Assembly: GCF_988243305.1 (NCBI RefSeq)
Contig: NZ_OZ547136.1
Direction: 5' to 3' (one strand)
Length of the DNA stretch: 64,000 nt
The translations under genes and the position numbers were made by a program. Below are positions 59,836 through 59,867 of the stretch, one piece after another. The notes beneath the pieces were generated by a model. The model did not search any database, was not told the origin of the DNA, and was given only the letters and a program-made list of their open reading frames with translations. Each line of letters begins with the position of its first letter. Position 1 is the first letter of the stretch.

Positions 59836-59867
59836 TTGACTCTGGAGTCGACTCCAGAGTGTATCCT
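59836..59867 (+). promoter_or_regulatory. zntA promoter with ZntR (MerR-type) operator
   Basis: -35 TTGACT and -10 TATCCT separated by a 20-bp spacer that contains the perfect 22-bp palindrome actctggagtcgactccagagt. Confidence 0.85.

What the first reader, a model, noticed from the sequence alone, without database searches (positions are those of the whole stretch)
59836..59867. MerR-type promoter architecture at zntA
A 20-bp spacer between TTGACT and TATCCT is filled by a perfect 22-bp palindrome, the hallmark of ZntR-mediated DNA-distortion activation.
Basis: partly seen in the sequence, partly recalled or inferred. Interest (0 to 1): 0.25.

Follow-up and report, generated by a model that had tools for sequence, protein, structure and literature searches.

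The report
The known ZntR-controlled zntA promoter

Summary
TTGACT (59836-59841) and TATCCT (59862-59867) are separated by exactly 20 bp. A perfect 22-bp palindrome, ACTCTGGAGTC|GACTCCAGAGT, lies at 59839-59860. It does not strictly "fill" the spacer: it overlaps the last 3 bases of the -35 hexamer and stops 1 base before the -10 hexamer.

The gene 36 bases downstream is ZntA (NCBIfam NF033775, 1448 bits). The whole yhhN-zntA intergenic region is 100% identical to E. coli K-12 MG1655, and the 80 bases around it are identical in 5363 of 5425 complete E. coli genomes. The 22-mer equals the published ZntR operator consensus "within a 20 bp promoter spacer" (PMC1526738). Orthologues in Citrobacter, Enterobacter, Photorhabdus, Vibrio and Shewanella keep TTGACy-20 bp-TAnnnT (CATACT in Enterobacter).

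The mechanism (MerR-type activation by DNA distortion, with ZntR acting in trans) comes from the literature, not from tests here. zntR is not in the window.

Verdict: real, correctly interpreted, already known, low interest.

Two side observations are not described in the papers I could search. A conserved hairpin pairs the -10 region with the zntA ribosome-binding site. A copy of the operator half-site sits at the zntA start codon.

The parts
59203..59829 (+). yhhN coding sequence (upstream neighbour). Its stop codon ends 6 nt before the -35 hexamer, and no + strand terminator-like site lies between.
   Evidence: ORF list; annotated yhhN in E. coli genomes and K-12; terminator scan.
59836..59841 (+). 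-35 hexamer TTGACT of PzntA
   Evidence: Sequence; identical in K-12; PMC3431237 names TTGACT as the PzntA -35; TTGACy is conserved in five other genera.
59839..59860 (.). ZntR operator: perfect 22-bp palindrome ACTCTGGAGTC|GACTCCAGAGT
59842..59861 (+). 20-bp spacer, 3 bp longer than the sigma-70 optimum of 17
   Evidence: Direct count; the 20-bp spacing is invariant in all orthologues examined; the standard promoter scan limited to 16-18 nt spacers does not call it.
59862..59867 (+). -10 hexamer TATCCT
   Evidence: In 73 distinct metagenomic variants the hexamer at this register is TATCCT, TATGCT, CATACT, TAGGAT, TAAGAT, TAGACT or TATTCT. The A at position 2 and the T at position 6 never change.
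59874..59875 (+). Predicted transcription start (inferred, not measured here)
   Evidence: Inference from the usual distance of about 7 nt after the -10 hexamer. Transcription-start tables could not be retrieved.
59862..59900 (+). Inverted repeat or RNA hairpin. The 5' arm TATCCTTCGGTTAA (the -10 hexamer plus 8 nt) pairs with the 3' arm TTAACCGGAGGATG, which contains the Shine-Dalgarno sequence.
   Evidence: I1; RNA fold -17.6 kcal/mol, z -5.2; conserved with compensatory changes in 43 Enterobacteriaceae sequences. Function unproven.
59893..59898 (+). Shine-Dalgarno GGAGGA of zntA
   Evidence: Sequence; 4 nt before the ATG; (C/T)GGAG (SD core GGAG) is invariant in alignment A2.
59903..62101 (+). 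zntA coding sequence (732 aa, Zn/Cd/Pb-exporting P1B-type ATPase)
   Evidence: NCBIfam NF033775 at 1448 bits; annotated zntA in 5425 E. coli genomes.
59905..59918 (+). Direct copy of the right operator half-site at the start codon: GTCGACTCCTGACA, 11 of 14 matches to GTCGACTCCAGAGT
   Evidence: I3; at least 12 of 14 matches in 32 of 62 distinct orthologous ORF starts. Unexplained.

Best explanation
This is PzntA, the sigma-70 promoter of the zinc/cadmium/lead efflux ATPase gene zntA. Its -35 and -10 hexamers are 20 bp apart, so they are out of phase for RNA polymerase. A dimer of the MerR-family regulator ZntR, encoded elsewhere on the chromosome, sits on the 22-bp palindrome between them. Without metal, ZntR holds the promoter in a weakly repressed state. 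With Zn(II), Cd(II) or Pb(II) bound, it kinks and underwinds the operator DNA. That shortens and re-phases the spacer, polymerase engages both hexamers, and zntA is transcribed.

Shown here: the anatomy, its identity to the characterised K-12 promoter, the identity of the downstream gene, and evolutionary conservation of the hexamers, the 20-bp spacing and the dyad.

Taken from the literature: ZntR binding, metal dependence and the DNA-distortion step.
For: - **Anatomy.**
- **Gene.** ZntA downstream at 1448 bits.
- **Identity.** 100% identical to the K-12 intergenic region.
- **Within-species conservation.** The 80-bp promoter region is identical in 5363 of 5425 E. coli genomes, whereas the surrounding 1.2 kb is only 95-99% identical in all but 2.
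- **Published site.** The published ZntR operator consensus is this exact 22-mer in a 20-bp spacer (PMC1526738). PzntA -35 TTGACT, the 20-bp spacing and ZntR DNase I protection are stated in PMC3431237.
- **Functional data on the K-12 sequence.** ZntR switches from repressor to activator with zinc on PzntA, and basal activity is very low without ZntR (PMC9189660). A MerR-ZntR hybrid requires the 20-bp spacer (PMC4486848).
- **Orthologues.** Citrobacter and Enterobacter carry the identical operator. Photorhabdus, Vibrio and Shewanella keep TTGACy-20 bp-TAnnnT. In Vibrio the outer operator positions change on both arms together (ACCTTGGAGT...ACTCCAAGGT), which preserves the dyad.
- **Geometry shared with PcopA.** The K-12 CueR promoter read is TTGACC-19 bp-TAACCT, and its dyad also runs from the 4th base of -35 to 1 nt before -10.
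- **No alternative promoter.** No canonical 16-18-nt-spacer promoter lies in the 73-bp intergenic region.
Against: - Nothing in the data contradicts it.
- zntR is not in the window, so the regulator's presence in this genome is assumed from synteny with E. coli.
- The transcription start, the footprint and metal induction were not tested, and I could not read the primary papers.
- One paper (PMC9189660) gives the PzntA spacer as 19 bp. A direct count between TTGACT and TATCCT gives 20, as three other sources say.
Confidence: 0.96

Rival explanations
1. The palindrome is primarily an intrinsic terminator or RNA hairpin closing the yhhN transcription unit (or acting on antisense transcripts), and its position between promoter-like hexamers is incidental.
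For: The terminator scan flags 59860-59839 on the minus strand: 9 pairs with tail CAAGTTTTAT. The palindrome folds as a strong hairpin in a read-through RNA. The yhhN stop is only 6 nt upstream of the -35.
Against: On the + strand, the yhhN sense strand, the stem is followed by GTATCCTTCGG with no U-tract. No gene converges on the minus strand here. The scan's terminator count is within the shuffle expectation (7 against 4.9 +/- 2.3). The hexamers and the exact 20-bp spacing are conserved across genera even where the palindrome sequence changes. The sequence equals the ZntR operator defined experimentally.
Confidence: 0.02
2. The promoter is real, but in this strain it is driven by a different MerR-family regulator (for example a CadR, PbrR or MerR-like protein), or ZntR has been lost, so the site is a relic.
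For: zntR is not in the window, so its presence is unverified. The identical promoter-operator also sits in front of MerR-family regulator genes in two soil metagenome contigs, so other ZntR-like proteins use the same site.
Against: The site is 100% conserved in 5363 of 5425 E. coli genomes while flanking coding DNA has diverged 1-5%. That pattern argues for ongoing selection, not a relic. The literature gives ZntR as the regulator of this exact sequence.
Confidence: 0.02

Closest known systems
E. coli K-12 PzntA / ZntR operator (Brocklehurst et al. 1999; Outten et al. 1999; consensus in Permina et al. 2006, PMC1526738)
   Same: Identical at every base from the yhhN stop to the zntA ATG: same -35 TTGACT, same 20-bp spacer, same 22-bp palindrome, same -10 TATCCT, same downstream gene.
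   Different: Nothing in the promoter. The surrounding chromosome is about 96-98% identical to K-12, so this is another strain of the E. coli group.
E. coli PcopA / CueR operator
   Same: Same architecture and register, read directly from K-12: TTGACC, a long spacer, TAACCT. The dyad starts at the 4th base of -35 and ends 1 nt before -10. The downstream gene is a metal-exporting P1B-type ATPase. The activator is a MerR-family protein working by DNA distortion (PMC9909328).
   Different: 19-bp rather than 20-bp spacer. The dyad has a different sequence and is interrupted (ACCTTCC-N7-GGAAGGT) rather than gapless. It responds to Cu(I), Ag(I) and Au(I) through CueR.
Tn21/Tn501 PmerT / MerR operator (founding member)
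   Same: The -35 TTGACT is identical (PMC3431237). It also has a suboptimal long spacer containing a dyad, and a repressor-to-activator switch by DNA underwinding.
   Different: 19-bp spacer, a 7-4-7 dyad of unrelated sequence, a divergent merR gene next to the promoter, and a mobile-element location. Here the regulator is unlinked and chromosomal.

Membership tests
MerR-family-activated promoter (ZntR-dependent PzntA) | Sigma-70 -35 and -10 hexamers separated by a suboptimal 19-20 bp | tested here: met
   TTGACT-20 bp-TATCCT. The spacing is conserved at 20 bp in 6 genera and in 73 metagenomic variants.
MerR-family-activated promoter (ZntR-dependent PzntA) | Dyad-symmetric operator lying between and overlapping the hexamers | tested here: met
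   Perfect 11+11 palindrome at 59839-59860; unique in the window; 5 of 200 shuffles reach this length.
MerR-family-activated promoter (ZntR-dependent PzntA) | Operator sequence matches the experimentally defined ZntR site | tested here: met
   Identical to K-12 and to the consensus ACTCTGGAGTCGACTCCAGAGT in PMC1526738.
MerR-family-activated promoter (ZntR-dependent PzntA) | Controls a metal-detoxification or efflux gene | tested here: met
   ZntA P1B-type ATPase, NF033775 at 1448 bits; the ATG lies 36 nt after the -10.
MerR-family-activated promoter (ZntR-dependent PzntA) | Cognate MerR-family regulator (zntR) present in the genome | not testable with these tools
This is expected because zntR is unlinked to zntA in E. 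coli (PMC1526738; PMC7911910). The rest of the genome is not available.
MerR-family-activated promoter (ZntR-dependent PzntA) | Metal-dependent activation with DNA distortion at the operator; transcription start downstream of this -10 | not testable with these tools
   Literature only, on the identical K-12 sequence. The primary papers and transcription-start tables were not retrievable.

The most novel reading that the evidence does not exclude
Beyond the known ZntR switch, the zntA leader may carry an undescribed post-transcriptional layer.

A conserved 14-17-bp hairpin pairs the -10 region with the Shine-Dalgarno sequence. A transcript started at PzntA lacks the 5' arm, so its ribosome-binding site would be open. 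Transcripts reading through from yhhN contain both arms and would be translationally silenced. This would be fold-back insulation like that of IS10 transposase.

A conserved copy of the operator half-site at codons 1-5 of zntA could be part of the same device, or an auxiliary ZntR contact.
Probability: 0.2. Interest if true: 0.4.

Novelty: already known. Interest (0 to 1): 0.07.

Why it matters
The feature is the model zinc-sensing promoter used to define MerR-type activation and to build Zn/Cd/Pb biosensors. Finding it here only confirms that the window is an ordinary stretch of E. coli-group chromosome with intact zinc-efflux control.

The comparative data add modest support for two points. 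The A at position 2 and the T at position 6 of the -10 hexamer, and the 20-bp spacing, are the invariant features across Enterobacterales. The promoter is also under much stronger constraint than the flanking genes.

The only potentially new biology is the leader hairpin and the half-site copy. If functional, they would mean zntA expression is insulated from upstream transcription at the level of translation.

Tried and rejected
- **Primary papers.** Brocklehurst 1999 and Outten 1999 are not held in the library.
- **Measured transcription start.** I searched the supplements of Cappable-seq and SMRT-Cappable-seq and tried the Thomason dRNA-seq paper. Nothing was retrievable, so the start site is inferred from geometry.
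- **Genome-contig scan with ZntA.** Generic P-type ATPase motifs swamped the scan. Only 5 of 79 loci were usable gammaproteobacterial orthologues. The metagenome scan with the operator gave the useful set.
- **Standard promoter scan.** It cannot see 20-bp spacers. Its silence here carries no weight except to show there is no canonical alternative promoter.
- **Terminator reading of the palindrome.** Rejected: there is no U-tract on the sense strand.
- **zntR in the window.** Absent. The weak hit at 13474-13653 is the helix-turn-helix of an IS3-family OrfA.
- **Ribosome-binding-site accessibility switch.** The effect is only modest: mean unpaired probability 0.17 in read-through RNA against 0.37 in RNA from the predicted start. 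It is inconsistent between lineages, so the insulation idea stays a hypothesis.
- **Fur or Zur box in the leader.** The AT-rich inner part of the leader in other genera (AATGA-N8-TCATT) matches the Fur consensus at only about 10 of 19 positions by eye, and E. coli lacks it. A Y. pestis study lists yhhN-zntA under a Fur-like box. I did not pursue this.

Full report
**1. The observation**

Reading the window gives, on the + strand:
- TTGACT at 59836-59841
- a 20-nt spacer, ctggagtcgactccagagtg, at 59842-59861
- TATCCT at 59862-59867

The repeat finder (I2) reports two abutting 11-nt arms, 59839-59849 and 59850-59860, that are 100% complementary. Together they form the perfect 22-bp palindrome ACTCTGGAGTC|GACTCCAGAGT.

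The only imprecision is the word "filled". The palindrome begins at the 4th base of the -35 hexamer and ends one base before the -10 hexamer.

Chance can be excluded on several counts:
- The 22-mer is unique in the window even with 3 mismatches allowed, against 0 expected.
- It is the longest gapless palindrome in the 64 kb.
- Only 5 of 200 dinucleotide-preserving shuffles contain a palindrome this long anywhere.
- TTGACN-19/20-TANNNT occurs 4 times in the window on both strands, and only this copy has a symmetric spacer.

**2. What it is**

The ORF starting 36 nt after the -10 hexamer (59903-62101, 732 aa) is ZntA. It matches NCBIfam NF033775, "Zn(II)/Cd(II)/Pb(II) translocating P-type ATPase ZntA", at 1448 bits over its full length.

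The 1.2 kb around the site matches yhhN-zntA in 5425 of 5426 complete E. coli genomes. The window as a whole is collinear with K-12 MG1655 3,557,533-3,610,547 at about 96-98% identity, and the gene order around the site matches K-12's ...rsmD-yhhL-yhhM-yhhN-zntA-tusA-yhhQ-dcrB.

From the yhhN stop to the zntA ATG the window is identical to K-12 at every base.

The 80 bp spanning the promoter are identical in 5363 of 5425 genomes. The flanking 1.2 kb is below 99% identical in all but 2 genomes. The promoter is therefore under much stronger constraint than the genes beside it.

**3. Agreement with the published promoter**

- Permina et al. [quoted passage not shown] This is the window's sequence. 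They also note that zntR usually lies apart from zntA.
- Hobman, Julian and Brown 2012 (PMC3431237): PzntA of K-12 has -35 TTGACT and, uniquely among the compared MerR-family promoters, a 20-bp spacing. ZntR DNase I protection is described as consistent with coverage of -35, spacer and -10.
- PMC7911910: the same 20-bp spacer, with an identical operator in Enterobacter.
- PMC9189660: on this promoter ZntR changes from weak repressor to activator as zinc rises, and basal activity without ZntR is very low. This paper gives the spacer as 19 bp. A direct count between the two hexamers gives 20.
- PMC4486848: a MerR-ZntR hybrid needs the 20-bp spacer.
- PMC9909328 and PMC11672702: reviews describing the family mechanism, DNA underwinding or kinking that realigns the -35 and -10 elements.

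**4. Comparative evidence gathered here**

Orthologous zntA upstream regions:

| Genus | -35 | Spacer | -10 | Operator |
|---|---|---|---|---|
| Citrobacter | TTGACT | 20 bp | TATCCT | identical |
| Enterobacter | TTGACT | 20 bp | CATACT | identical |
| Photorhabdus | TTGACT | 20 bp | TAGAGT | diverged |
| Vibrio | TTGACC | 20 bp | TACACT | diverged |
| Shewanella | TTGACC | 20 bp | TATAGT | diverged |

The Vibrio operator is ACCTTGGAGTAGGCTCCAAGGT. Its outer positions differ from E. coli on both arms in a dyad-preserving way.

These gave 73 distinct downstream sequences. The hexamer 20 bp after the -35 is TATCCT, TATGCT, CATACT, TAGGAT, TAAGAT, TAGACT or TATTCT. The A at position 2 and the T at position 6 never change, which fixes the -10 register independently of the literature.

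The K-12 CueR promoter PcopA, read directly, has the same geometry with a 19-bp spacer. Its dyad also runs from the 4th base of -35 to 1 nt before -10.

**5. Mechanism**

Shown here: the anatomy, the identity to the characterised promoter, the gene it controls, and the conservation.

Taken from the literature on the identical sequence: a ZntR dimer, encoded in trans, occupies the palindrome. The 20-bp spacer mis-phases the hexamers. Zn(II), Cd(II) or Pb(II) binding makes ZntR distort the operator so that RNA polymerase can form an open complex.

Not tested: the presence of zntR in this genome (absent from the window, as expected), the transcription start, and metal induction.

**6. Rivals**

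- **Terminator reading.** The only support is a minus-strand consensus hit. The sense strand has no U-tract after the stem, and no gene converges on the minus strand.
- **Relic site or foreign regulator.** This is contradicted by the extreme conservation of the site.

Both are unlikely, at about 2% each.

**7. Novelty and score**

The feature is already known; it is the model ZntR promoter. Interest is low.

**8. Things noticed beyond the finding**

(a) **A second inverted repeat at 59862-59900.** It pairs TATCCTTCGGTTAA (the -10 hexamer plus 8 nt) with TTAACCGGAGGATG, which contains the Shine-Dalgarno GGAGGA.
- As RNA it folds at -17.6 kcal/mol, z = -5.2.
- Equivalent hairpins exist in Citrobacter and Enterobacter, with z about -4.
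- In 43 distinct Enterobacteriaceae sequences, a 17-pair version is 88% paired, against 28-60% for slid controls. Four pairs carry compensatory changes. No shuffle out of 500 reaches the observed score.
- The sense strand folds better than the antisense strand in 46 of 48 sequences, which suggests an RNA-level constraint.
- A transcript from PzntA should start at about 59874 and so lack the 5' arm. yhhN ends 6 nt before the -35 with no terminator, so read-through RNA would contain both arms.
- The hairpin may therefore silence zntA translation on read-through transcripts. Predicted accessibility of the ribosome-binding site differs only modestly, 0.17 against 0.37, so this is a hypothesis.
- A Y. 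pestis transcriptome paper treats yhhN-zntA as one unit (PMC2231364).

(b) **A copy of the operator half-site at the start codon.** The first bases after the AT of the start codon (G TCG ACT CCA GAG) copy the right operator half-site.
- The match is at least 12 of 14 in 32 of 62 distinct ORF starts, and 11 of 14 in this window at 59905-59918.
- Synonymous positions in these codons are conserved while the later codons vary.
- No explanation was established.

(c) **The same promoter in front of regulator genes.** In two soil metagenome contigs (L086, L118), the same promoter-operator precedes MerR-family regulator genes rather than zntA.

(d) **A fimbrial operon absent from K-12.** Window 6163-16820 is a chaperone-usher fimbrial operon that K-12 lacks, in the glpD-glgP gap. 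Its usher gene is truncated by IS4-family and IS3-family insertions.

Noticed in passing
window 59862-59900: A conserved hairpin or inverted repeat pairs the -10 hexamer region (TATCCTTCGGTTAA) with the Shine-Dalgarno region (TTAACCGGAGGATG). It folds at -17.6 kcal/mol, z -5.2. It is 88% paired with 4 compensatory pairs across 43 Enterobacteriaceae sequences. A transcript from PzntA would lack the 5' arm, so it may silence translation of yhhN read-through RNA. I found no description of it in the papers I could search.
   Followed up: partly
window 59905-59918 (and loci L083-L202 at the zntA start codon): The start of the zntA ORF (ATG TCG ACT CCT GAC A) is a direct copy of the right operator half-site GTCGACTCCAGAGT. 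The match is 11 of 14 here and 12-13 of 14 in 32 of 62 distinct orthologous ORF starts. Synonymous sites are conserved. Its CUCC is also complementary to the Shine-Dalgarno GGAG. Unexplained.
   Followed up: partly
L086:7707-7800 (+) and L118, promoter at 522 on the reverse strand: Two soil metagenome contigs carry the exact E. coli-type TTGACT + 22-bp palindrome + G + TAT(T/C)CT promoter in front of a MerR-family regulator gene (N-terminus ...IGDVARKTGLTVDGIRFYE...) rather than zntA. This implies autoregulated ZntR-like regulators using the same operator in unrelated, GC-rich organisms.
   Followed up: partly
window 6163-16820: A roughly 10.6-kb segment absent from K-12 lies between glpD and glgP. 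It is a chaperone-usher fimbrial operon, 99.6% identical to other E. coli strains. Its usher is truncated to 634 aa (it matches model positions 266-877) by an IS4-family transposase gene (11437-12654) and an IS3-family element (orfA/orfB at 12536-13749).
   Followed up: partly
window 36108-36116; 42823-42998; 44499-45413; 51059-52003: Other differences from K-12. The IS1E that interrupts yrhA in K-12 is absent here. Three short stretches (between ugpA and ugpB, the ugpB-livF intergenic region, and panZ-livJ) do not align at megablast stringency.
   Followed up: no
L103, L122, L129, L141 (leader between the -10 and the zntA ATG): In a GC-rich enterobacterial lineage with -10 TAGGAT or TAAGAT, the leader carries a different hairpin. 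In L103 it is perfect and 12 bp (CAGTAACGGGCG/CGCCCGTTACTG); L122, L129 and L141 have a longer, imperfect variant. It occupies the same place, from 1 nt after the -10 up to the first G of the Shine-Dalgarno sequence. The position of the structure is conserved although its sequence is not.
   Followed up: no
window 30339-30356: The second-longest perfect palindrome in the window, ATTGTCCGGCCGGACAAT (18 bp). I did not examine it.
   Followed up: no
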